The translations under genes and the position numbers were made by a program. Of a stretch of 64,000 nucleotides of DNA, positions 46,973-60,924 are shown piece by piece (positions within the stretch are counted from its first letter, which is position 1; the number at the start of each line of letters is the position of its first letter). This DNA is from the human T2T-CHM13v2.0 reference genome, Homo sapiens. Under the pieces are notes generated by a model. It was not told the DNA's origin. It worked only from the letters and a program-made list of their open reading frames with translations, and searched no databases. Location: NCBI RefSeq assembly GCF_009914755.1, contig NC_060936.1, one strand, 5' to 3'.

Positions 46973-47208
46973 ACAGGTTGAGCATCTCTAATCCAAAAAT
47001 CTGACATCCAAAGTGTTCCAAAATCTGAAACTTTTCAAGTGCTGAAGTGATGCTAGGAGGAAATACTCACTGGAACATTCTGGGTTTCCAGTTTTTGGAT
47101 TAGGGATACTCAACTGGTAAGCATACTTCAAATATTTCAAATCTAAAAAATTCAAAATTCAAAACACTTCTGGTCCCAAGTATTTTGGATAAGGGATACG
47201 CCACCTGT
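46973..47208. mobile_element. Tigger4a/MER46-like MITE
   Basis: TIRs caggttgagcatc...gatacgccacctg with TA target sites. Confidence 0.75.
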
Positions 47209-47797
47209 ACTTATTTATACTTCTCCAATAACACGTGATTCTGTCACACACATAAAACTGATATCCAGATGTTTTTCAACCCAAAGTCATACAAATGGTC
47301 AGTGGCAGATTTTGGACCAGAAGTTAAGCATTTCTAATTCCATGAAATTGTCGTAATATTATGACTCCCACCTAAACATAACTTATTAATTAATTGATTG
47401 ATTGATAAATTTTCACCTTTCTGCAATACGGAGCTTCTATCTAGACAGGCCAGTCATTTTACCTGGTGCTAAAATAAACCATTTCTTCTGCTTTTGCAAA
47501 AAATGTTTCCACTCAGATATACTCTACACTCTTGTCACTAATCTTCAGTTTAGAAGTTTTTTCTTGGAGTGAAACTTTCCCAGATTGCCATTACATTGCT
47601 TTGCATATTCTGAGGTTCTGCAGTAGTGAGGCTGTTGTGAATTGTTCCTAAATTTATGCTAGGTGCTCTTACCTCAATTTGGATGCCATTATTTGTTTAT
47701 TGCAAATACAGGGTACAATGAAAAGCAGTAAGTGCGCATGGAGTAAATTTGCATTAAATGAAGAAGGAATCAATTATAGAGTCTCTAGAAATACATA

Positions 47798-47803
47798 TTT
47801 ATT
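47798..47803 (-). terminator. PolyA signal of the fossil terminal exon (candidate LINC00612 3' end)
   Basis: tttatt on + strand = AATAAA on -, about 100 nt past the fossil stop codon; A2M has its signal about 90 nt past its stop. Confidence 0.6.
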
Positions 47804-49419
47804 TGCCAACCTCATTCAGTATCTGTATTGCAGGGACAAAATATCCTTTTAAAAAGTCGTGGGTCTGGGGATTCCAGCCAAGTCTTGTTTATAGACACAA
47901 GCCTCAAACATTTTCTTGCTCTGTGCCTGTGGAGAGAAGAGGAAAGCGAACAGGATGACTTCGGGCTTGCCAAGGAGTGAATTTAATTCTAATTGGATAT
48001 GGACAGCAGCAGGGCTTTGCTAAAGGAGACCAAACTGGTTATGGCTGAGAATGGAATCCATCAGATATCTACCCTAATCACAGGGTAATTTCATTTACAC
48101 TCTTCTGATAAGAAAATCAGGAAACCTTCCAGGAAGTTAGTGTTCCTCTCCAAAGCTGTATAGTTCTGCGTTACCTTGCAGTATGATAAATCTGATATCA
48201 ACTAATAAAAGATGTAGATGATTTTGTATTTAGGAGGACTGCTTTTGAGAGCAAAATGAAGGCTTGGGATATGTAGAGCAAACTGCCTATCGGCTGCAGG
48301 GGACACTGTATTCAGCAAATTTGCTTCATCTGAAACACACAATGGGAGAAAAGCTTGAGAATGGGAGCTTCAACGGGACAGGGCTATGTGGAGAGGCTTT
48401 GACCTATTTAAGGACTGCAAACCATACTGAATCAGGGCCTGCGTGATCACAAAAATGTCAGCTCACTGGGGAAATATATAGACATGGTCAAGGAATTTCC
48501 ACTCTTGATACCATTAGTATAATCCGTTACTCTGGTGGAAAATCAAAGCCTGCTCATGCTACAGTGTTCAAGCAAAGTACTAGGGGGGATCACGCGGGTA
48601 TGTGTTCTTTCAGTTCTTGTTCCATATTTGCTTCTTTTTTCTTGCATGATATTTCTTATATGTTTTCCTCATCTGAAAGACTTAGCATAATTCTCTCCAT
48701 AAATCAGTATAATACCCACGATTTATATTCCAGCTGAAATTTTACTTGGGGGGTGTGTGTGTGTGTGTGTGTGTGTATTTTAGGGATGGGGTCTCACTCT
48801 TTCACTCACTGCAGCCTCAAACTCCTGGGTTCCAATGATCGTCCTGCCTCAGCCTCCTGAGTAGCTGGGACTACTACAGGTGTGTACCAGCATGCTGGCT
48901 GATTTTATTTTTCAATTTTTTGTAGAGATGGGCTCTCACTTAGTTGCCCAGGCTGGTCTCAAACTTCTAGCTTTAAGAGATCATTCTGCCATGGCCTCCC
49001 AAACTGCTGGGATTATAGGCATAAGCCACTGTGCCCAGCCTCTTCATTTGCTGTTTAAAGACCACTCAACGCTATAGTTCTCACCCCTCTCTTAGTTCCT
49101 ACTATAATTATTTGTATAGTTCTTAGGCTCTTCTTTATTTCTTTGCATTGCTATATTATCTTTTTAAGATTTATGTATGCCTTTATTTATAAGCACTTCT
49201 ACGTAAAACTCTTGGTACTTTGGATTATTTTGCACGACTGATAGGCTTACATATCAATATACATGTATATTACAGGTAGTTTTGGCAGTAGTTTTGTAGG
49301 CCAAGGAAGAAAAAATAAGTTATGGAGACAGATTAAACTGAAAACAAGATGTACAAGGGTTTACCACACTTTTATTGCTTTAAGAATTGAGGTTTGGCCT
49401 CCACTTCCACCCTTGTTGC

Positions 49420-49715
49420 TACTATCTCAAGTGAAATAACTCAGAAACAGGAGGTCAAATACTTCACATTCTCACTTATAAGTGGGAGCTAAATAATTTG
49501 TACACATGGACATAGAGAGTGGGATAACAGATACTGGAGACTCAGAAGGGTGGGAGGGTGACAGGGCAAGAGGGATGGGAAATCACTTAATGGGTACAAT
49601 GTACTCTAATTGGGTGATGGCTACACTCAAAGCCCAGACTTCACCACTGTGCAATGTAGCCATGTAACAAAACCATACTTGTACCCCCTAAATCTATATA
49701 AAGTAAAAAAGAAAA
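49420..49715 (+). mobile_element. L1MA 3' end fragment in a fossil intron
   Basis: ctcacttataagtgggagctaa...gtacccccta aatctata followed by an A-tail. Confidence 0.8.
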
Positions 49716-50616
49716 AAACCCCAAACACATTGGCTTTTATTTTATTTTTCCATCAAAGACACCACACTGGAAAGAACTGAGTTTATCTAGGATTCTGTTT
49801 TGCTCACCTGTCTTATAGTAATCATAGGCTTTCACAAAAGCAGGTTTCAGCTTTCTTATGGGGTTGTCTTGCAGAAGAGTGAAAGAAAAGGTCAGTGTTC
49901 AATCCGTAACCCAAGAAAGGAAGGAGTAATAATGCGGAACCAGGGAGGCCTCATCTCTTTTTCCTTAGCATCAGTCTTCATCCTTTGAAAGATAATTTTT
50001 TAGTGGGCTAATAGGATTCATTCTCTAATTCATTGTGCTCCCTAATGGCTCACATAGGGAGCAGTTGGAGGGTGATGTGGATTTTAGAGTAGGAACCTCA
50101 GGAACTTGAGCAGAGGCTCCCAAAAGTAGATTAGAAGTTTATTAGTCTTTTAAACGATTAAAATAATACATATTCCTCCATAATATCCAACACATGGCTC
50201 TGCCTATAGTGAGAGATAGATTCTTTATACTGGCAAGCTGACTCTATCTATATTAATATTAATATTTCCAAATATTCAGGAAACAGGCGTACATCAGGGG
50301 CTGTTCTTTTGCTGCAAATGAAGTTGATGGAATTACACTGTGATACGACTGACTGTGAGTAATAGATCTAGACTGATAGCATATCTGTTTATCATCTGTA
50401 TCTAATCTGTCATCTACCTTATTTATCTATTATCTATCTAGCTATCTCTCTATGTATAATTTATCTAACTTCTCTCATACATGTATGCTAAGGTAAGGTT
50501 GATTTAATCACTGACAACCCTTGGAAACACTTCCTATCCTTGATTACCAACTTTCAACATGGCTTCTGGATGATGAAGCTTATTTATGGAAAAGAATGTT
50601 TATCTGAAGTATACAG

Positions 50617-50765
50617 AAATATTCATATGCTCATTTTAATATAAACAAACATATATGTTTTAATATAAACATATAAATATTCATATGCTCATTGTAATAT
50701 AAACAAACATATATGTTTTAATATAAACATATAAATATTCATATGCTCATTTTAATATAAACAAA
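50617..50765. repeat. AT-rich tandem repeat, ~58-bp unit x ~2.5
   Basis: aaatattcatatgctcattttaatataaacaaac... recurs three times. Confidence 0.85.
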
Positions 50766-51889
50766 TCCATACCTACTGGCCTCCCCCAACCCTCTTGTCT
50801 GTGACACTCCAAATCCCAGGAAGCTTGCGATGAGGAATGAGGATGTAAAATATCTCACGTGAACAGAGAGGATGTGCTTTTCCAAATGGCCTTCCTAATG
50901 ACTGCTCTTCTCGTACCACGTGCTTGCCTGGTGATGAGATCCCCTAGAAGGACTGTTCACCTGGGTCTGTCTAGCAAGGCTGGCAGGGGCCCCACCTGGT
51001 CCACAGAAATCAAGATATGGTTGTTGTGCACTTCTGTCCTGCTCACGTGGCTAGATCTTTCAAGCTAAGGAAAATAAGAGAAATCACCAGTGTTACTGAA
51101 TAAAGAAAGCCTGTGGGGTACAAAGAGACAAATAGACTATGAGATTGAAGAAGTCTATACATAAACAAAGCTGGGGTTAAATTCATTTAAATGAGTTCGA
51201 AGACACTTGTCCAGTAAGATGAAAACATATACAGAGTATTATGAATACCACCACATTAGATACAAGATTGAATATTCATATGATTAAGTAACAGGCGTCT
51301 TTAGCATTTGTTTGAAGGTGAGGGAGAAGTGTCCTCACATTGGATAGCTAGTCATCTGAGATGATTTGCAAAGCCATCTGTCTCTACACTGCCATTCATC
51401 TCAGCTTTCTCTACATTTCACAGTACTTAAAGACTATGCCAATGATTTTGGTACTTAATTATATCTTGCCCTGAAATGTCATTTGACAGTTTTGGTTACC
51501 CATGTGTAATATTTTTATCTAGAATGTATCAGCACCTAGCACAATGCTAAATATATATTTGGTACTATATGAATTCAATTTCCTTAGATTATGACCAATG
51601 TTGCTTTGACATTATTAGGATACCATTGTTTTATTCTTACATTGGATTAAAAAAATCCAAACACCTAGCACCTATTTACCATTTTCACTGTGGGTTTCAA
51701 TGGATAAAACCAGATATCAACTTGGATACATCCAAGATTAGACAGCTCCCTGTGTAACTATAGATATAAGAAAGAAAAATAAGCCTCAGTGTCTTTTGAA
51801 TCTTGCTCTCAGTTAAGGTTCAACATAAGCCCTGACATCTTTATTTATTTTTGTTTTTATGTTTAATTTTATATATGCATGTATGTATG

Positions 51890-52509
<620 letters not shown>

Positions 52510-54139
52510 CAGCCCTGGCATCTTTAAGTAGCTTTGCTAACTATTCCTGTGTCCTTAGTGGTCTTTCAACTGCTGGGAATAAATAGCCTTTACTGTCAGT
52601 GTGAATAGTTCTGAAAACTAACTGCATGATAGAACCACCTACAGAGTTCATTAAAAACATAGATGCCTGTTAGCCCAACGTGGTGGTGGGCGCCTATAGT
52701 TCCAGCTCCTAGGGAGGCTGAGGCAGAAGAATTGCTTGAACCTGGGAGCAGAGGTTGCAGTGAGCTGAGATTGCGCCATTGCACTCCAGCCTGGGCAACA
52801 GAGTGAGACTCCATCTCAAAAAACAAAAAAACGAAAACAAAAAACAAAAAACGCAGATGTCTGAGCACATCCCCAAAAATAATTAATTAAATCTTTATTG
52901 ATGAGACCTGGATATCTGCATTTTAAAATAAATTCTACAAAGGATGCTAACCAGATTTTAGAATTGCTGGTATATGTCGCTTCTTTATAACTTATATGTT
53001 TTGGATTAATGATGATCTTTTTCGTCACGTGAAGACTATCTTCACAATTAGACTATAAGATTTCTCTAGGTAAGAGACAGTATATTTATATTTCCTGTGG
53101 TTACTCGAATATGATTTTGCTTAATTAATATGTCTTGCTTTTGTGAAACACATTTAACTTGTCTACTGATGATGGATCAAATTGTGAATATTATTTCCTT
53201 TTTTCATCCGAGAAGCTAGGATTAAATTCCTTTAAATGAATTTGAAGAATTTTGTATTTATAACCAGAGTCATGGGTTGTATTCCAAGTAAAGCTTTTTT
53301 TATTTTTTATTTTTTTATGAGATAGGATCTCACTATGTTGCCCACACTGGTTTTGAATTCCTGGGCTTCATATGATCCTCCCATCTCAATCTCCTGAGTA
53401 GCTGCCAGATAAAGTTTTTGAAAAGTGTTGTTGAATTGGGAATCTTTTTTCTCTTAGAAAAATAGAATTAATTTTTTTTTAATAGAGATGGGGCCTTGCT
53501 ATGTTTTCCAGATGTTTGCCAGGTTGGTCTTGCACTCCTGGCCTCAAGCAATCTTCCTACCTTGGCCTCCCAAAGTGCTAGGATTACAGGTGTCAGCCAC
53601 CGCACCTGGCCATTGTGCCTGGCCAAAAAATATAATTTTAAAAAGACCAGAAAGACTTTTCTTTAGAGGTAAAGATGAATGAGCCTATGTTAAAGTGTCA
53701 TTGAAAGAAATTATTAATGGTCAGTCGTGGTGACTCACCCCTGTAATTCCAGCACTTTGAGAGGCTTAAGTAGAAGGATCTCTTGAGCCCAGGAGTTTGA
53801 GACCAGCCTGGGCAGCATAGCGAGACCCTATCTCTACAAAAAATAAATAAATAAGATGAAAAAGAAGTTATTTATTCTTCGATCATGATGGCAGGCAATC
53901 AAAGAATCTTGGAGGCATACTAGTTAGAGCTTTTAACCCCACAGGTCTTCATTGTCCACATCGGTGATGACCATTTTTTTAGTAGACAAGGCAAGAACTT
54001 AATGAAGAGAATTACTTTACGTTTCTTGAATTTACTACTGAAGAGTTATAGGTAGCTAATAGCTAATATTTTCGTAGCTAGTGTTGGGACACGGAAACCA
54101 ACCCCCCAAAATATGGTGCTTTGATGGGCTGAACTGTAT

Positions 54140-54735
54140 AGTATATCTGATATATTTATATAGTGTATAAAAAATCACCTGACACAATAGATGGATAATA
54201 TATCTGATATATTTATATATCGTATAAGAAATCACCTGACACAATAGATATGTAATATATCTGATATATTTATATATTGTATAAAAAATCACCTGACACA
54301 ATAGATGGATAATATATCTGATATATTTATATATTGTATAAAAAATCACCTGACACAATAGATGGATAATATATCTGATATATTTATATATTGTATAAAA
54401 AATCACCTGACACAATAGATGGATAATGTATCTGATATATTTATATATTGTATAAAAAATCACCTGACACAATAGATGGATAATATATCTGATATATTTG
54501 TATATTGTATAAAAAATCACCTGACACAATAGATGGATAATATATCTGATATATTTATATATTGTATAAAAAATCACCTGACACAATAGATGGATAATGT
54601 ATCTGATATATTTATATATTGTATAAAAAATCACCTGACACAATAGATGGATAATATATCTGATATATTTATATATTGTATAAAGAATCACCTGACACAA
54701 TAGATGGATAATATATCTGATATGTTTATATCAGA
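54140..54735. repeat. 57-bp minisatellite (VNTR), ~10 copies
   Basis: Unit aatcacctgacacaatagatggataatatatctgatatatttatatattgtataaaa; gives the 19-aa periodicity seen in the ORF track. Confidence 0.95.
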
Positions 54736-56468
54736 TATATTATACATTTATATATTATACATATACATTTATATATATACATAATAAATACATTGTATTA
54801 TACATATATGTATATATTATACATATACATTTATATGTATAATATAGTTGACATATTTATATATTTATATCGGATATATTGTACATTTATAATATATTTA
54901 TTATATTTTATATTATAGTATATTATCATTTATAATATATTGTTATATGTTATATGATATATATTTATAGCAGACATAGTAAATATCTATTGTGTTAGGT
55001 GATTTTTTATACAATATATAAATATATCAGATATATTATACATTTAAACAGTTAAACACCTAAACAGCCCAATTTTATGTGGATCAGTACTACTAACGGC
55101 TTAGGGTAAAATGACAGCTACAGCGTAACTAGAATGTTAAAGTGGCATGTCTCAGACAACGTGGATGGACATAAAGTATTTGAGAGAATATTGCATAATA
55201 GAAAAAAACATTGTAAAGACTAAAATACTAAATAAGACCTTTTTTTCCCGAGCAATAATTTGCCCAGGCTGGTCTCAAACTCTTGGCCTCAAATGATCCT
55301 CCTGCCTTGGCCTCCTAAAGCATTGGGATTATAGGCATGAACCACTGCTCCTGGCCAGAATTCTTGATTAAACAATAGGGTCTAAATAAATTTAAACCCC
55401 TTTTATTCTTTTTATTCTTACAGGGTAGACTCAAATATTCTATTTCTTTCCAACTTTATATTCTTGTCATAACAACCCAGTATTCTCTGAGGCAAATGGA
55501 TGCTTATGACCAACTGGCCTGAAATGGGGGAATATAGGGTTAGTGGTGAGTCACATATAAGAAAATGCAAGAGAATAGCAGTGTATCATATTTCAAAATA
55601 AAATACAAACTATACATAAAACTGACCCCAACAAGTATCCATTTCATTTCCTGTCGTGTATCTATATGCTTTCCTGGAAAGAATAAACTTCAGTTCACAA
55701 AATCAGATGTAGAAGATACATCACTTTTAAAAATTCTACGTAATTTTAATTCCAAGATTCCCATGCCACCAGGCTGGTGGGAAATCCAGTTTTAGTTGTA
55801 ATTAGGCCTTTTCTCCAGTATTACATATGAATTTGAGTGTAATACCCCAAAACTTGAGAAGGCCATTGTATCTCCAGTCCACTGGGGCAATGAATAGCTT
55901 GAGCACCTGATCATTATAATGACCCAGATGTGTATCTTTTTCTTTTACTCTGCGGTGAGTTTTTCTAAGGGAGGAATCCTATTTTGTTTAATTTTGTATT
56001 ATAGCATGGGATATTGTGCCTGGCAGATAGTAGGCAATCAGTTAGTATTTCAGGAATAAACACTCTTGGTCAGTGATACAGCTAATGATTTGCAACAAGC
56101 ATATCCTTAAAGTACCTTTTCAGTAACGATTTCCATATGAACAAAGAAAAAAACTAGAACCAAGAGGTAAAATTATAATCCTGTTGTCTTGTTCCCATAG
56201 CCATACTCTGATTTCTTTTATGTTCTGTGCCCTGGCTTGATACTTAATTTGACAGCTAATTATAATGTTTATTAAGCTCTGAAATATACTTTCTCCTGGC
56301 CTTTTTGTCTGAAGTTGTTTGAGGTGTCACCATGGTTGGAAGTTAAGAGCATGGAAGCTAGACTTCTTGGTCTTGAATTCTAGCTTTGTCACTAACTTAG
56401 TAACTTTGGGCAAATTACATGTCTCTGCTTCAATTTCATTTGTTAAGGTAGTACCTATTTCACAAGGC

Positions 56469-58856
56469 TGATGGTGGCAGCAGTGGGGCGTCCAGAGCTG
56501 CCGCTGCCATCACGCCAGCTGCAGCAGGGAGGGGCGGGCAGCGGCGGCGGAGCAGCTGCGGGAGCCGCAGTGGCTGCTGTGGGACATCTGTGCCTCGCGT
56601 CCCCTGTGCCTTGAGACCCCAAAGCAGCCGACTGCGCCGCCACCATCCTCGCGTTGCCGGGTGGGGCGACGTGCTCCCCGGCCAGGAGCCTCCACCGCTC
56701 CGGACCCTGGCCCTATGTCGCCGCTCTCGCCCGCCGCCGCCGCGGAGTGGGAGTGGGGAGGAGGGGAACAGTCCTTGGAGCCGGCCCCGGGAGTACTCCC
56801 GGAGCCTGCCGCCCTGGAAGCCGCCACGATGGACCGGGCTGAGTCGCCCGCCGGAGGGGAAGCAGTGTAGTCGGGCACGGAGGGGCAGGCAGAGAGGGGC
56901 CCCAAGGCGGAGCTGGGTCCGGGGCGGAGCGGTGTTCGCACACAAAGCGCTGGGGCTGGACCCAGGGTTCGGGGCCAAGGCGAGAAGTGGGAGCGGGGCC
57001 CGCTTTGGGGACCCGGACAGCGGTGTGGCCACCGCGCACACCTCCGACAGCGCCGCATTCCTGGGCCTTGGGAGGAGGCTCTGAGTAGGGCCGCCTGGGG
57101 CGCGTCTTCAGGGTCCTCCCGGCACTGGGGTGACCGCCGAGCTAGACGCGCCTGAGGGCTGAGCCCCAGGGCTCGTGATCTGCTCCCGGAGGCGCCCCCC
57201 AGGCAGGGCCGTGAGCCGGGCGAGGGAGAGTCCTGGGCTGCCCCTGAGCCCCGGGGCCACGGGAAGAACTTGCAGCGACGTCATCCCTGCCCCGGACACA
57301 GTCCCGGGCCCAGGGAGGACCTGGAACATTCCCTTCCTCCCCCCCCCCCCCCGCCCCCGCCCATCAGCCCAGCCTGCAAGGAGGCGCCACCGGACCTGCA
57401 CACTCAGGAGCAGGTGAGCCAGGGACAAGCAGGAGCCCCGCCCCTTCCGAACTGGTGGAGCAGGAGCTCCCAGGGTGCAGCTGCAGCCACCTTGCCGCGG
57501 CTGTGGACATTTTCTGTGCTCTCAGAGGCCCAGCAAAGTCCCCTGCCCACTGCAGGCTCCAGGGTGCCTACTCCGGCTGCCTGGCTTCTCTCCACTGTTA
57601 GCACCCACTCTGAACTCAGAGCAAGGTCGGGCCGAGCCTGGGTACTGTCACAGCCTGGCCGAGCGTGCACACGCTCAGGACAGTGCTGATACGCCAGCCC
57701 CCTGCCGTCTCGGCCCCCTTTGGAACTTGGGCACCAACAAGCGTGGGAGGGAGGCTGAGAGGGGTCTGAAGACAGCTGGACACTGACTTGCAGGCGCTCC
57801 TTGGCATGAACAGCCTGGGAGCAGGAGGCAGACAGGTTCCTGGGTGGAAGGGGATGGGTCCCCAGTGAAGTCCCACCCTCAAGCTGGTGAGGGCTTGAAG
57901 CCTGCAGACCAGAGAGGTAACTTGTGGTGCTGCTCCCTGGGCCCACTCATGGCTGCCCATGGACCAATCAGCATGCATTTCCTCCCTCTGAGGCTCATAA
58001 AATCCCCCAGACTCAGCTAGATTGGAAGAGAGGATGGGAAGACAATGGATGACCTACCTGTGGAGAGAAACTACCCATTCCAGAACCTCCTCTCTGCTGA
58101 AAGCTGAACACTCAATGGGAAGACCTGTTTGCAGAGAGGAGCCAGCCACTCCAGGGTCTCCGTTCTGCTAGAAGCTGAACACTCGTTGGGACACCCTTGC
58201 TGTGGAAAGGACATCCTTACTGTGGAAATGAGCTACTAACTGCAGGTCTCCTTCCTCTTCATCTTCCTTATCCTTCTGTTCCATTGCTCAGTAATGCTCC
58301 TCTTCATCTGTCTCATTCTCCACTTGTCTGCTTGATGCAGGAGCTGAGGAGCTGCACAGCAAGGTTAAAAGAGCTGTAACACAAACAGGGCTGCAACATG
58401 CCCCTTGCTCCCCACAGGGAGAGAAGAGCTCTGGCCCTCGGAGAAGCCCAGACCTGGGAGCTCCTTGAGCCCGGGCTGTGACTCCCTCTTTGGGGCCCTG
58501 GTTGGCGTCACTGCATTCGCCAGTGCCACTGTTGGAAGCTGCTTGTGATGCGCCTGGTCCAGGGGGAAGCTGTTTGTTGTGTGCCTGGTCCAGCCACCTC
58601 ATGGAGAGCCTGTGCTGGCACCTGGAGCTGCCCAACCTGGGCAGCAGCTTGTGTGTGTGACTGCACAGTGGCCACGCTTGCTCACACACCCCTAGCACAC
58701 CCCTCTGCTCCACCCGTCTCAATCTCCCTTGGATCCGGGATCCAGGTTGGTAGCAAGTGCGAGTGGGCAGAAGCAGCCCAGTGGGCCTAGAGCAAAACTC
58801 AGGCAAAGGTGCCACTAGACTGGCCAGGAAAGCGACACCCTAAAGATCCCATAATG
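56469..58856 (+). mobile_element. Long MER52-family (MER52D-like) ERV1 solo LTR
   Basis: tgatggtggcagcag...gccgctgccatcacgccagctgcagcagggagg start and gcgacaccctaaagatcccataa end match recalled MER52 termini; homologous to the 42.6 kb copy. Confidence 0.75.
56480..57450. promoter_or_regulatory. CpG island; probable bidirectional promoter of LINC00612 and A2M-AS1
   Basis: Very GC- and CpG-rich with GC boxes (ggggcggg, cccgcccc); the only CpG island in the window. Confidence 0.8.
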
Positions 58857-59864
58857 CTGATATGTTAATTCTATTCTATAAGCACCACACAGAAGTGATA
58901 GCTTTTATTTCTTATTTTGTCTAGCCTGGAGACAGAGCTAAGGATTCCTTGAACTGCAAAGTCTTTTCCAGTTCTTAGTTTATACAATCCATACTCACCT
59001 TCTGCCTAACTAAGCATTGTCATTTTTGTGCCAAATGAAGAGTAGGACTCCTACGATTGTCCTCAGACTCTCTTGGCTCAATCCTCCTGCTTTAACCTTT
59101 CCTACTTCAAAAACTCCTGAAGTTTTGCTTCCCCTTCTATAGAATGGAAATATATGTCGCAATACTTACTGCAAAGAAAATTATATATTTTAAAAATAGA
59201 CTAAAGAGATGTTGTGAGACATCAGACATCAATCAGATGTTGTGAGAACTGATTTCTGCATCAGAATATCTCCTTGACTTTACAGCTATCCTTTAATCCT
59301 GGCTCAAAGTTCCAGAAGAAAGATGATCCAATATAATACTCCTATTTGGACTTTGAGTCATACACATTCCTTCTTCTGAGAAAACGTGCTTCTGCATGAA
59401 TCCTCCCTTCATTATTTTCAGCTCATCTATTATTGAATCTGAAACCCCAGGTTAACTGACTGATCACTCTCATCAGTGGCAGATTTTGGTGTAACATAGG
59501 ACACATCACTCCCAATTCAGGTCAAGTCCCAATTATCTTGCCTCTCAATATGACATGTTCAATGTTGTATTTCATTCTACTTCATTTTAATGTAAAAAGT
59601 CTTTTCTGGTGAAGTCAGTCTTTTATTTTCTCATAAAAATTCACCCTTTGGGTTTTTCATAGGGTATTCCCATAACCAAACACACTTTACACTTTCCTAG
59701 TACATAACCCAATACTTTCTTCTTTCCCCACAGTCCTTACATGAAGCCTACTCAGACCGACATCACTGTATCATTTTTTTGTATTCTGAAGTCCTTCAGC
59801 ACTTGATTCCTTTAAGTTTAATCTTGGTATTCTATTGGGAATCATATGGAAATGTACAATGATA

Positions 59865-59918
59865 TTTATTGAATGAACAGGAAACAGGGAAAGACATTGA
59901 CCAGAAAAAGTGTTTATT
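59865..59918 (-). terminator. A2M: Two tandem A2M polyA signals
   Basis: tttatt at 59913-59918 and 59865-59870. Confidence 0.75.
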
Positions 59919-60007
59919 CATCAAGTCTTTAAAGATACAAAAACACGTGTCTTCTGTGGAGCTCTGAGAACAGGACTCCAGCAAAGCACTTTTCAGCCTT
60001 GTGGTCT

Positions 60008-60024
60008 TCAAGCATTTCCAAGAT
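60008..60024 (-). CDS. A2M: A2M exon 36 coding part, (D)LGNA*
   Basis: cacag acceptor; AT CTT GGA AAT GCT TGA; 3' UTR extends to ~59893. Confidence 0.95.
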
Positions 60025-60367
60025 CTGTGACATTGGAAAGAAAAAAAATTAAGACAGATTTGGGTCTCCATGAGCAGAGAGTATTCTTTCCCTTAGTTCT
60101 GGGTAGCATAGTGCCCAAGGAAACCTAATCAGTACAGTGGGAAACCAAATCTATTCCAAATCATTACCCATAAGCAATCCTATGGACTCTCTGAGGTTTG
60201 ACAGAGTCAGCGGCCCTCTCCAATAAATGTGTTTTTCTATAATAATGTGCAGTGTGAGTAATTTGATGTTTTTGACAAATATTTACCCAGCGTTTTATGA
60301 AGGAGAAGGTTTGGGGGGCAAGCTGAAGGAGCTCTGACTGCCTTTTGGAGGAGTGTGAGTGGCTTAC

Positions 60368-60409
60368 CTTTGCTGCAAGGAGCATTGTACTCAGCAATTG
60401 CAAACTCAT
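60368..60409 (-). CDS. A2M: A2M exon 35
   Basis: (D)EFAIAEYNAPCSK; AG/GT flanks; 42 bp. Confidence 0.96.
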
Positions 60410-60924
60410 CTGAAAAAAAAAAAACCAACAAAAAACCAGAAATCATTACATGAAGTGAGAAAGAAAGCAAACATCTGTGGGATACAGGCCAAGGAAGGAG
60501 TTTGTTGTGGGAAGAACAGTATTGTACCAGAAACATAAGCATCATTCATCTGATGTGTTGCTTGCTACCTTATATTCTCCTTTCAAATATAGTGTTTTAT
60601 ATATTCTTTTATCCCAAACTCCTGAAGGACTCTTCAGATGTTCTACTTACTTAAATCTCATATTGTCATACAGTCCATTTATCTGATGAAAAGGGAACTA
60701 AATATCCCACAGGTGTTTTGTATTAGTAGTTGATAAATTTATAATGTAGGTTGTTTCTATAATGTATGTATAAGAGACAAAAAGAGGGGCATCAGACTTG
60801 ATGGAGACAAAATGAAGTGATAATGTAATTACTTAATGTAATAAATAACCCCAACACATCTCCTAAACCTGAATTTCTGTGATCAGGAATTAAATATTTC
60901 TACGTGAAAATCACTCTCACTCAC

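What the first reader, a model, noticed from the sequence alone, without database searches (positions are those of the whole stretch)
47775..57255. LINC00612 looks like a chimera of an ERV LTR promoter and the dead macroglobulin gene's 3' end
The fossil is on the same strand as LINC00612 and downstream of the CpG-island LTR. Its last exon keeps a strong acceptor (cctcttctctccacag at 47927) and an AATAAA at 47798-47803, about where the recalled LINC00612 end maps. Inference: the LTR-initiated lncRNA has recycled the fossil's polyA site and possibly some exons. It would then carry sequence sense-homologous to the A2M 3' end and partly complementary to A2M-AS1, which fires from the same promoter, making a possible three-RNA regulatory unit.
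Basis: inference. Interest (0 to 1): 0.75.

Follow-up and report, generated by a model that had tools for sequence, protein, structure and literature searches.

The report
LTR-driven lncRNA reusing dead macroglobulin exons
The human non-coding gene LINC00612 starts inside an old retroviral LTR and is then spliced and ended by signals left over from the last exons of a long-dead alpha-2-macroglobulin-type gene, probably the lost human counterpart of the rodent murinoglobulins.

Summary
On the minus strand at 47.8-51.8 kb lie decayed homologues of the last five A2M exons (32-36), and nothing further upstream. Three LINC00612 junctions (51064, 49808, 47926), its AATAAA and its cleavage site are the relic's own signals. 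Lost signals fit the RNA's shape: the exon-34 acceptor is AG>GG (intron 33 retained) and the exon-35 donor is gone (exon skipped).

The CpG island is the GC-rich 3' kilobase of a 2385-bp solo LTR (56472-58856, minus strand) with a 4-bp target duplication and many dispersed copies. LINC00612 starts in it in sense; A2M-AS1 starts 105 bp away in antisense.

New here: the relic belongs to the PZP/MUG lineage, not A2M, and most likely to the murinoglobulin-like (MUGL) clade. A 2026 HGNC family paper lists no such human relic.

Not supported: complementarity between LINC00612 and A2M-AS1. Sense homology to A2M mRNA is limited to 156 nt that A2M-AS1 does not cover.

Verdict: a clear new example of two known routes to a lncRNA. 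Function is untested.

The parts
56472..58856 (-). Solo LTR, 2385 bp, in the orientation of LINC00612. It ends in CA; its first two bases read CA here where four other copies have TG.
   Evidence: Dispersed copies: 352 and 1768 first-look candidates, 40 scored each, 65-94% identity. Shared ends with unrelated flanks. Termini and target duplications. No terminal direct repeats inside the unit.
58857..58860 (-). Target-site duplication TCAG, 5' side of the LTR
56468..56471 (-). Target-site duplication TCAG, 3' side of the LTR
56472..57506 (-). CpG island, which is the GC-rich 3' 1035 bp of the LTR (GC 0.73, 87 CpG, o/e 0.63). It holds the LINC00612 start (57257, LTR position 1600, sense) and the A2M-AS1 start (57362, LTR position 1495, antisense).
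   Evidence: GC falls to 0.38 just outside the LTR. The same part is 66-72% GC in 8 other copies, with CpG o/e 0.17-0.61 against 0.69 here.
56455..57257 (-). LINC00612 exon 1: 786 nt of LTR plus 17 nt of flank. The donor TAG|GTACTA lies 17 nt beyond the LTR end.
   Evidence: Hub annotation
51680..51757 (-). Relic exon 32 homologue, 78 nt against 91 in A2M (12-nt and 1-nt deletions, so a frameshift). Both splice sites are intact. The RefSeq LINC00612 transcript does not use it.
50996..51064 (-). Relic exon 33 homologue, 69 nt as in A2M, open frame, 55-58 of 69 nt identical to A2M/PZP. Its acceptor is the LINC00612 exon-2 acceptor (51064). Its donor is intact but unused.
49911..50995 (-). Relic intron 33, retained in LINC00612 exon 2 (1085 nt). 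It holds a 58-bp x 2.6 tandem repeat.
49808..49910 (-). Relic exon 34 homologue, 103 nt as in A2M. Acceptor AG changed to GG, in-frame TGA at 49901-49899, donor CAG|GTGAGC intact and used as the LINC00612 exon-2 donor (49808).
   Evidence: Pfam A2M_recep E 1.1e-6
48289..48329 (-). Relic exon 35 homologue. Acceptor intact, 1-nt deletion, donor GT lost. LINC00612 skips it.
47777..47926 (-). Relic last exon, which is LINC00612 exon 3. The acceptor is the PZP/MUG-type one, 6 nt upstream of A2M's. The TGA stop sits at the homologous place.
47798..47803 (-). AATAAA, aligned with the polyA signals of A2M, PZP and the next paralogue. Cleavage is 21 nt downstream, against 20 nt in A2M.
57362..58856 (+). 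LTR-derived part of A2M-AS1 (antisense to the LTR): exon 1, exon 2, the first 516 nt of exon 3, and all four splice sites.
   Evidence: Hub annotation

Best explanation
LINC00612 is assembled from two dead elements. (1) A 2385-bp solo LTR inserted between the relic and A2M, minus strand, with a 4-bp target duplication. Its GC-rich 3' kilobase has stayed CpG-rich and carries two annotated transcription starts 105 bp apart: LINC00612 in LTR sense and A2M-AS1 in antisense. The sense strand of this copy has no AATAAA or ATTAAA, so no canonical signal stops sense transcripts inside the LTR; that they run out of it is inferred. (2) Downstream lies the 3' stump (exon 32-36 homologues, the receptor-binding domain only) of an alpha-2-macroglobulin-family gene whose exons 1-31 are gone. 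A donor 17 nt past the LTR joins the relic's exon-33 acceptor. Intron 33 stays in, which fits the exon-34 acceptor being AG>GG. The intact exon-34 donor is used. Exon 35 is skipped, which fits its lost donor. The relic's last-exon acceptor, AATAAA and cleavage site finish the RNA. The site coincidences are shown against the annotation; the causal links are inferred. The relic belongs to the PZP/MUG lineage and is most likely the human remnant of the murinoglobulin-like gene (MUGL) that sits next to A2M in horse, mouse and rat (inferred, about 0.6-0.65). I found no sequence sign that the RNA works by pairing with A2M-AS1. Most likely its form is a by-product of surviving signals, and any role comes from transcription at the shared LTR promoter next to A2M (inferred, untested).
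For: Relic: collinear homology to A2M exons 32-35 and to PZP exons 32-34 and 36; Pfam A2M_recep. The four-way alignment shows equal exon lengths for exons 33 and 34, an aligned stop codon and an aligned AATAAA. Junctions: the splice-site sequences at 51064, 49808 and 47926 are the relic's own. The 47926 acceptor matches the one PZP uses, as shown by the C-terminus of human PZP protein P0111. Truncation: 20 kb of A2M upstream DNA gives no further same-strand exon hits. tblastn with 5 full-length family proteins hits only residues from about 1354 onward on the minus strand. LTR: many dispersed copies. The four other copies with both ends in hand start with TG and end with CA; target duplications are perfect in 3 of those 4 and in the window copy, and 3 of 4 bases in the fifth. 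The island ends at the LTR border. CpG o/e is 0.69 here against 0.17-0.61 in 8 other copies. There is no polyA hexamer on the LTR sense strand. MUGL: the ML tree of 56 C-termini (106 columns) puts the relic in an 18-tip Mug/MUGL clade (UFboot 89) and with Glires Mugs (83). Placement on a fixed backbone: likelihood weight 0.995, RELL 0.83 for Glires Mug, and A2M 0.017 or less. Five of 18 discriminating columns agree with MUGL only, none with PZP only or A2M only. PMC12874980 (Discussion read) says MUGL/Mugs lie adjacent to A2M.
Against: The exon coordinates come from one RefSeq model supplied with the finding; I saw no RNA data. Relic exon 32 has both splice sites intact yet is not in that model, so surviving signals do not explain everything. 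Used signals are not better kept than unused ones (4 of 4 against 4 of 6 intact), so nothing points to selection on the RNA. The MUGL assignment rests on about 98 usable residues. With rodent Mugs removed, support falls to 0.53 for MUGL, against 0.24-0.29 within PZP and 0.13-0.23 on mixed PZP+MUGL stem branches, so long-branch attraction is not excluded. A 4-taxon nucleotide analysis was unresolved. I could not name the LTR family, and none of the sampled copies forms a pair around retroviral genes. Which side of A2M the Mug genes lie on in other species is not stated in the text I read.
Confidence: 0.8

Rival explanations
1. The relic is not a unitary MUGL remnant but an old partial duplicate of the 3' end of PZP (or of a PZP/A2M ancestor) that never belonged to a complete gene.
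For: Only exons 32-36 are present. Without rodent sequences, 0.24-0.29 of the placement weight falls within PZP and 0.13-0.23 on mixed PZP+MUGL stem branches. Nucleotide identity to PZP (71.6%) and A2M (69.6%) is similar, and the 4-taxon topology is unresolved.
Against: The best placement is in or on the stem of the Mug/MUGL clade in both analyses. Five signature columns are MUGL-only and none PZP-only. Its position next to A2M matches where MUGL/Mugs sit in horse, mouse and rat (PMC12874980, Discussion).
Confidence: 0.25
2. LINC00612, A2M-AS1 and A2M form a regulatory unit through RNA-RNA pairing: LINC00612 mimics the A2M 3' end and pairs with A2M-AS1.
For: A shared bidirectional LTR promoter. 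A2M-AS1 fully overlaps A2M exon 36 (132 nt). LINC00612 exon 3 is the homologue of that exon.
Against: The exon-36 homologues are too diverged: the alignment score equals that of shuffles. The best antiparallel match between the spliced RNAs is 15 nt, E 0.6. Duplex energy is -52.8 kcal/mol against -45.6 +/- 5.5 for shuffles, and 18 of 200 shuffles do as well. The well-kept exons 33 and 34 are not covered by A2M-AS1.
Confidence: 0.04
3. LINC00612 is a functional trans- or cis-acting lncRNA that raises A2M transcription by bringing phospho-STAT3 to the A2M promoter, or acts as a microRNA sponge. Its mosaic origin would then be incidental.
For: PMC9985899 (abstract read) reports co-expression with A2M and loss of p-STAT3 binding at the A2M promoter after knock-down. 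Titles and abstracts in the listing report miR-590 and miR-31-5p sponge models. PMC8112243 (one passage read) reports an HERV locus named LTR19_12p13.31 whose expression is associated with that of LINC00612, A2M-AS1, A2M and PZP.
Against: Nothing in the sequence tests this. Used and unused relic signals are equally well kept. There is no Rfam family in 47000-60500. Half of the RNA is a retained intron with a tandem repeat. Co-expression is also expected from a shared chromatin domain alone.
Confidence: 0.2
4. The CpG island is an ordinary host promoter, and the repeat matches are chance or low-complexity GC-rich similarity.
For: The region is very GC-rich (0.73), and such DNA can give spurious matches.
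Against: Matches run up to 2 kb in single alignments, and near-complete copies measure 2169-2418 bp. The unit has defined ends, unrelated flanks and 4-bp target duplications in 5 copies.
Confidence: 0.02

Closest known systems
lncRNAs that are fossils or loss relics of protein-coding genes (PMC5577775 and PMC10195156: abstracts from the search listing plus term searches of the main text; for PMC10195156 also its one held supplement. Xist/Lnx3 is recalled.)
   Same: A lost coding gene leaves exon homologues that are now exons of a spliced, polyadenylated lncRNA.
   Different: Only the last five exons survive, and the promoter is foreign (an LTR), not the old gene's. LINC00612, A2M and Mug terms occur 0 times in the main text of both papers and 0 times in the one held supplement of PMC10195156.
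LTR-promoted lncRNAs (recalled from the literature on transposable elements in lncRNAs; no paper read here)
   Same: The transcription start lies inside an LTR in sense orientation, and the first exon is mostly LTR.
   Different: The LTR is unusually long (2.4 kb). The starts lie in its CpG-rich 3' part, 1600 bp in, and it fires both ways, also giving A2M-AS1. The family name is unknown to me.
Transcribed pseudogenes of the human A2M family: OVOS1P, OVOS2P, OVOS1BP, PZP2P (PMC12874980; abstract, sections 9, 13, 16, 17, 26 and term searches read)
   Same: Same gene family and the same 12p13 cluster. OVOS1BP was also first annotated as a lncRNA.
   Different: Those are near-complete genes with their own promoters. 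This is a 4-kb stump not listed there (LINC00612 occurs 0 times), and it appears to belong to the Mug/MUGL branch, for which that paper names no human member.
A2M and PZP 3' ends (same window and C12:9.13 Mb)
   Same: Exon order, exon lengths (69 and 103 nt), phases, stop position and polyA signal.
   Different: About 70% nucleotide identity. One in-frame stop, two frameshifting deletions plus one 12-nt in-frame deletion, two dead splice sites, and no exons 1-31.

Membership tests
Alpha-2-macroglobulin family (clade A2M/PZP/PZP2/Mug) | Receptor-binding domain homology (Pfam PF07677) | tested here: met
   49740-49898 minus strand: E 1.1e-6, 29.6 bits against a cut-off of 21.7. It is the only one of 127 stretches above a curated cut-off.
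Alpha-2-macroglobulin family (clade A2M/PZP/PZP2/Mug) | Collinear exon-by-exon homology with conserved exon lengths, stop codon and polyA signal | tested here: met
Alpha-2-macroglobulin family (clade A2M/PZP/PZP2/Mug) | Complete gene (bait region, thioester domain, exons 1-31) | tested here: not met
   No hit upstream of exon 32 with 20 kb of A2M DNA (same-strand hits only) or with 5 full-length proteins. It is a fragment.
Pseudogene | Disabling lesions | tested here: met
   In-frame TGA in exon 34; two frameshifting 1-nt deletions (exons 32 and 35) and one 12-nt in-frame deletion (exon 32); exon-34 acceptor AG>GG; exon-35 donor lost.
MUGL/Mug (murinoglobulin-like) orthologue | Falls inside the Mug/MUGL clade in a family tree | tested here: inconclusive
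   UFboot 89 and 83. Placement RELL 0.83-0.87, falling to 0.53 without rodents. A2M is excluded (0.04 or less).
MUGL/Mug (murinoglobulin-like) orthologue | Lies adjacent to A2M | tested here: met
   The relic's exon 32 is 8 kb from the A2M 3' end, on the same strand (hub annotation). PMC12874980 (Discussion) says MUGL/Mugs lie adjacent to A2M. The side is not stated there; that mouse Mugs lie between A2m and Klrg1 is my recollection only.
MUGL/Mug (murinoglobulin-like) orthologue | Aligns to the 3' end of an intact MUGL at the orthologous place in another species | not testable with these tools
   No other mammalian genome is held.
Endogenous-retrovirus solo LTR | Dispersed repeat with defined ends | tested here: met
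Endogenous-retrovirus solo LTR | TG...CA termini | tested here: met
   All 4 other copies with both ends in hand start with TG and end with CA. The window copy ends in CA, but its first two bases read CA.
Endogenous-retrovirus solo LTR | Target-site duplication of 4-6 bp | tested here: met
   Perfect 4-bp duplication in 4 of 5 copies, the window's among them, and 3 of 4 bases in the fifth.
Endogenous-retrovirus solo LTR | Copies occur as pairs around gag-pol-env, or are followed by a primer-binding site | tested here: inconclusive
   No same-strand pair within 12 kb among the 40+40 scored matches. None of the 9 three-prime flanks printed (8 independent copies) starts with TGG. The flanks were not scanned for retroviral domains.
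Endogenous-retrovirus solo LTR | Match to a named family (Dfam/RepeatMasker) | not testable with these tools
   No repeat library is held. PMC8112243 names an 'LTR19_12p13.31' locus near these genes, but I could not check its coordinates (supplements closed).
LTR-derived promoter | Transcription start inside the LTR | tested here: met
   The annotated starts 57257 (sense) and 57362 (antisense) lie at LTR positions 1600 and 1495. This rests on annotation only, with no CAGE data.
Sense/antisense RNA pair LINC00612 x A2M-AS1 | Overlapping or significantly complementary exons | tested here: not met

The most novel reading that the evidence does not exclude
LINC00612 is the transcribed remnant of the human murinoglobulin-like gene (MUGL). 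That would make it a fifth, so far unnamed, human A2M-family pseudogene. It lost exons 1-31, and its last exons are transcribed today from an LTR CpG island that also gave rise to A2M-AS1. An ancestral eutherian A2M-MUGL pair would then survive in humans as A2M plus an LTR-promoted lncRNA pair beside it, and the LTR island could act as a cis-regulatory element of A2M.
Probability: 0.55. Interest if true: 0.55.

Novelty: new member of a known kind. Interest (0 to 1): 0.45.

Why it matters
LINC00612 appears in 92 papers of the searched library. Those I saw, by listing or abstract, treat it as a plain intergenic lncRNA. Knowing that 36% of it is LTR, 15% is macroglobulin exon relic and 49% is a retained relic intron matters in three ways.
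- Probes, primers and 'binding-site' predictions can hit LTR copies elsewhere, or A2M and PZP exons 33-34.
- It adds an entry to the inventory of the human A2M family: a likely MUGL relic that the 2026 HGNC paper does not list.
- It shows that one LTR CpG island carries the starts of both lncRNAs flanking the A2M 3' end, which gives a concrete element to delete when testing cis-regulation of A2M.
It is also a clean teaching case of how dead splice sites (AG>GG, lost GT) shape a new RNA.

Tried and rejected
I replaced it with 127 stop-free stretches. Pfam missed relic exons 32 and 33, so it is too insensitive to rule out further upstream exons. I used DNA and tblastn searches for that instead.
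- the machine was busy; I repeated the same request.
- window.fa carries no soft-masking, so I had no repeat labels.
- timed out. I never ran the whole-transcript duplex fold with shuffles; only blastn on the full transcripts and the fold on exon 3 stand.
- the 4-taxon nucleotide analysis was unresolved (17, 11 and 10 informative sites for the three topologies; ML bootstrap 57).
- A2ML1 was too diverged to serve as an outgroup. The tree is rooted for display only, on the paralogue beyond PZP.
- constrained ML searches timed out. Their fast versions were 16-19 lnL units worse than the free tree, even for a constraint that the free tree satisfies. I discarded that AU test and used branch-by-branch placement instead.
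- a file-name clash of my own, fixed.
- no Rfam family in 47000-60500.
- Literature: LINC00612 with 'LTR' gave 1 paper; A2M-AS1 with 'retrovirus' gave 3; LINC00612 with 'pseudogene' gave 12, and nothing in that listing points to its origin, though I opened none of the 12 for this term; Mug1 + Klrg1 + A2m gave 0.
- the supplements of PMC8112243 were closed, so I did not check the coordinates of 'LTR19_12p13.31'. I did not use paper reading after that.
- I did not scan the flanks of LTR copies for retroviral protein domains.


Full report
**1. The observation**

A pyrimidine tract ending in CAG stops at 47927, directly before the annotated last exon (47926-47777). An AATAAA lies at 47803-47798, 21 nt before the annotated end.

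The fossil is not a chance pattern.
- blastn of the A2M 3' end (59.5-64 kb) against 47-57.5 kb gives collinear, same-strand matches for exons 33, 34, 32 and 35.
- Local alignment scores are 92, 90, 45 and 36, against shuffle maxima of 26-34 (100 mononucleotide shuffles).
- The last exon is too diverged to be significant against A2M alone (25 against a shuffle mean of 22.8). It matches PZP (39 nt, 84.6%, E 6e-6).
- Of 127 stop-free minus-strand stretches between 47700 and 57300, exactly one passes a Pfam curated cut-off: 49740-49898, A2M_recep, E 1.1e-6.

**2. Anatomy of the relic**

I aligned the relic with A2M, PZP and the next paralogue beyond PZP at C12:9.21 Mb. That paralogue is probably the locus called A2MP1 or PZP2P; the name is recalled, not checked. 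The alignment and the splice-site print-out give this picture.

| Relic exon | Window coordinates | State |
|---|---|---|
| 32 | 51757-51680 | Both splice sites intact; 12-nt and 1-nt deletions |
| 33 | 51064-50996 | 69 nt as in A2M; open frame; both sites intact |
| 34 | 49910-49808 | 103 nt as in A2M; acceptor AG>GG; in-frame TGA; donor CAG\|GTGAGC intact |
| 35 | 48329-48289 | Acceptor intact; 1-nt deletion; donor GT gone |
| 36 | 47926-47777 | TGA stop, AATAAA and cleavage distance (21 nt against 20 nt in A2M) all aligned |

The last-exon acceptor at 47927|47926 lies 6 nt upstream of the A2M acceptor. It is the one PZP uses: the human PZP protein (P0111) carries the two extra residues that this acceptor predicts.

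Nothing of the gene lies further upstream.
- 20 kb of A2M genomic DNA (window 64001-84000) gives only repeat matches (same-strand hits listed).
- tblastn with five full-length family proteins against 40000-59892 hits, on the minus strand, only residues from about 1354 onward. The only plus-strand hits were two weak ones at E 0.65.
- A2M itself ends 8 kb upstream of relic exon 32. The relic is therefore a stump of five exons.

**3. LINC00612 against the relic**

The RefSeq exons given with the finding are 57257-56455, 51064-49808 and 47926-47777.
- 51064 is the relic's exon-33 acceptor.
- 49808 is its exon-34 donor.
- 47926 is its last-exon acceptor, and the 3' end is its polyA site.
- Only the first donor (56455) is foreign to the relic.

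The two odd features of the RNA are what the lesions predict. Intron 33 is retained, and the exon-34 acceptor is dead. Exon 35 is skipped, and its donor is dead.

By origin, the 2210-nt RNA is 786 nt LTR, 17 nt flank, 322 nt relic exons and 1085 nt relic intron.

Used signals (4 of 4 intact) are not clearly better kept than unused ones (4 of 6 intact). I therefore see no sign of selection on the processing pattern.

**4. The promoter**

The CpG island belongs to a dispersed repeat.
- Whole-genome searches with 56440-57520 and with 57500-58420 gave 352 and 1768 first-look candidates. Forty were scored in each search, at 65-94% identity, on many chromosomes.
- Pairwise comparison with fetched copies shows one unit running from 58856 to 56472 on the minus strand. 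Flanks are unrelated beyond both ends.
- The four other copies with both ends in hand start with TG and end with CA. Perfect 4-bp target duplications flank three of them and the window copy (TCAG); the fifth matches at 3 of 4 bases.
- The unit has no terminal direct repeats of its own.

This is the structure of a solo LTR with the 4-bp duplication I recall as typical of class I ERVs. I could not name the family, and I found no copy attached to retroviral genes.

The 3' 1035 bp are GC-rich in every copy examined (66-72% in 8 copies). CpG o/e is 0.69 here against 0.17-0.61 elsewhere, and GC drops to 0.38 at the LTR border. The island is therefore LTR sequence that escaped CpG decay.

LINC00612 starts at LTR position 1600 in sense. 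A2M-AS1 starts at position 1495 in antisense. The sense strand has no AATAAA or ATTAAA.

A2M-AS1 takes 803 of its 2187 nt, and all four of its splice sites, from the same LTR.

**5. Which gene died?**

Nucleotide identity over 350 exon columns is 69.6% to A2M and 71.6% to PZP, while A2M and PZP are 79.9% alike. A 4-taxon analysis is unresolved. The relic is old and not a recent copy of either gene.

Two protein searches supplied named mammalian A2M, PZP and murinoglobulin sequences. I translated the relic through its breaks, with X at gaps and stops, and aligned it with 54 of these C-termini plus the paralogue beyond PZP (106 columns).
- In the ML tree the relic sits in an 18-tip clade (UFboot 89) with rodent Mugs, two rabbit sequences, a 1482-aa horse protein, rhino, hippo, hedgehog and pangolin. 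Within that clade it groups with the Glires members (UFboot 83).
- Those are the taxa in which PMC12874980 (sections 9 and 17 and the Discussion, read) reports Mug or MUGL genes.
- Placing the relic on each of 107 backbone branches gives a likelihood weight of 0.995 and RELL 0.83 for the Glires Mug group. The PZP grade gets 0.11 and A2M 0.017.
- Of 18 discriminating columns, 5 agree with MUGL only, 0 with PZP only and 0 with A2M only.
- Without the rodent sequences the best branch is still the MUGL stem. Support falls to 0.53, with 0.24-0.29 inside PZP.

The paper states that horse MUGL and the mouse and rat Mugs lie adjacent to A2M, as this relic does. It names four human family pseudogenes, none of them this one, and the term LINC00612 occurs 0 times.

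I conclude that the relic belongs to the PZP/MUG lineage (firm) and is probably the human MUGL remnant (about 0.6-0.65).

**6. The proposed three-RNA unit**

The spliced LINC00612 shares two sense-homologous stretches with the A2M mRNA: 67 nt at 85% and 89 nt at 77.5%, corresponding to exons 33 and 34.

A2M-AS1 covers only A2M exon 36 and part of intron 35.
- Between spliced LINC00612 and A2M-AS1, the best antiparallel match is 15 nt (E 0.6).
- The duplex of LINC00612 exon 3 with the relevant A2M-AS1 stretch is matched or beaten by 18 of 200 dinucleotide shuffles.

The pairing idea has no sequence support. What the two lncRNAs really share is one bidirectional LTR promoter.

**7. How it most likely works**

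Shown: the origin of each part, and the coincidence of the annotated junctions and 3' end with the relic's signals.

Inferred: the LTR island acts as a bidirectional promoter, transcripts leave the LTR for lack of a polyA signal, and the spliceosome and cleavage machinery use whatever relic signals still work.

Untested: any function. PMC9985899 (abstract read) reports that LINC00612 supports p-STAT3 binding at the A2M promoter. PMC8112243 (one passage read) reports that an HERV locus called LTR19_12p13.31 is associated in expression with LINC00612, A2M-AS1, A2M and PZP. Both reports are compatible with a shared regulatory domain. Neither bears on the RNA's origin.

**8. Novelty**

Both routes are known kinds: lncRNAs from gene relics (PMC5577775, PMC10195156) and LTR-promoted lncRNAs (recalled). 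This is a new, well-resolved member that combines them.

I found no paper describing it.
- LINC00612 with 'LTR' gave 1 paper, and LINC00612 with 'pseudogene' gave 12. Nothing in those listings points to its origin; I opened only PMC8112243.
- There were 0 occurrences in the two relic papers and in one supplement.
- Subscription journals and closed supplements were not seen.

Noticed in passing
window 57362-58856 (+): A2M-AS1 is itself LTR-born. Exon 1, exon 2, 516 nt of exon 3 and all four splice sites lie in the same LTR, in antisense (803 of 2187 nt).
   Followed up: partly
window 50280-50354 and 50820-50907 (+): Exons of KLRG1 read-through transcripts (hub annotation) lie antisense inside LINC00612 exon 2. 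That is 163 nt of perfect complementarity, a more real sense/antisense pair than LINC00612 with A2M-AS1.
   Followed up: no
window 54138-54731 and 54711-54969: A 57-bp x 10.4 minisatellite (96% matches), followed by an AT-rich microsatellite, in LINC00612 intron 1. GC falls to 0.18 there.
   Followed up: no
window 50617-50765: A 58-bp x 2.6 tandem repeat (97% matches) inside LINC00612 exon 2, in the retained relic intron.
   Followed up: no
L030 (C12:9130500-9140499) and window 60024: PZP and A2M use last-exon acceptors 6 nt apart (tandem AG). This gives PZP two extra residues before its C-terminus.
   Followed up: partly
L007 and L009 (C16:20.42 and 20.46 Mb): Two copies of the LTR 39 kb apart on opposite strands have 99.9% identical 1.5-kb flanks. 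This is an inverted segmental duplication, not two insertions.
   Followed up: no
G000:C17:81820133-81821802: One LTR copy carries an expanded internal tandem array of about 145 bp. The window copy has a two-unit repeat of about 71 bp in the same part of the LTR, window about 58191-58043.
   Followed up: no
window 56593-56642 and 56703-56752: The two RefSeq 'silencer' elements of the hub table lie inside the LTR's CpG-rich part and LINC00612 exon 1.
   Followed up: no
P0014: A Saimiri protein named 'PZP alpha-2-macroglobulin like' by UniRef groups with A2M, not PZP, in the C-terminal tree. This is probably a naming slip.
   Followed up: no
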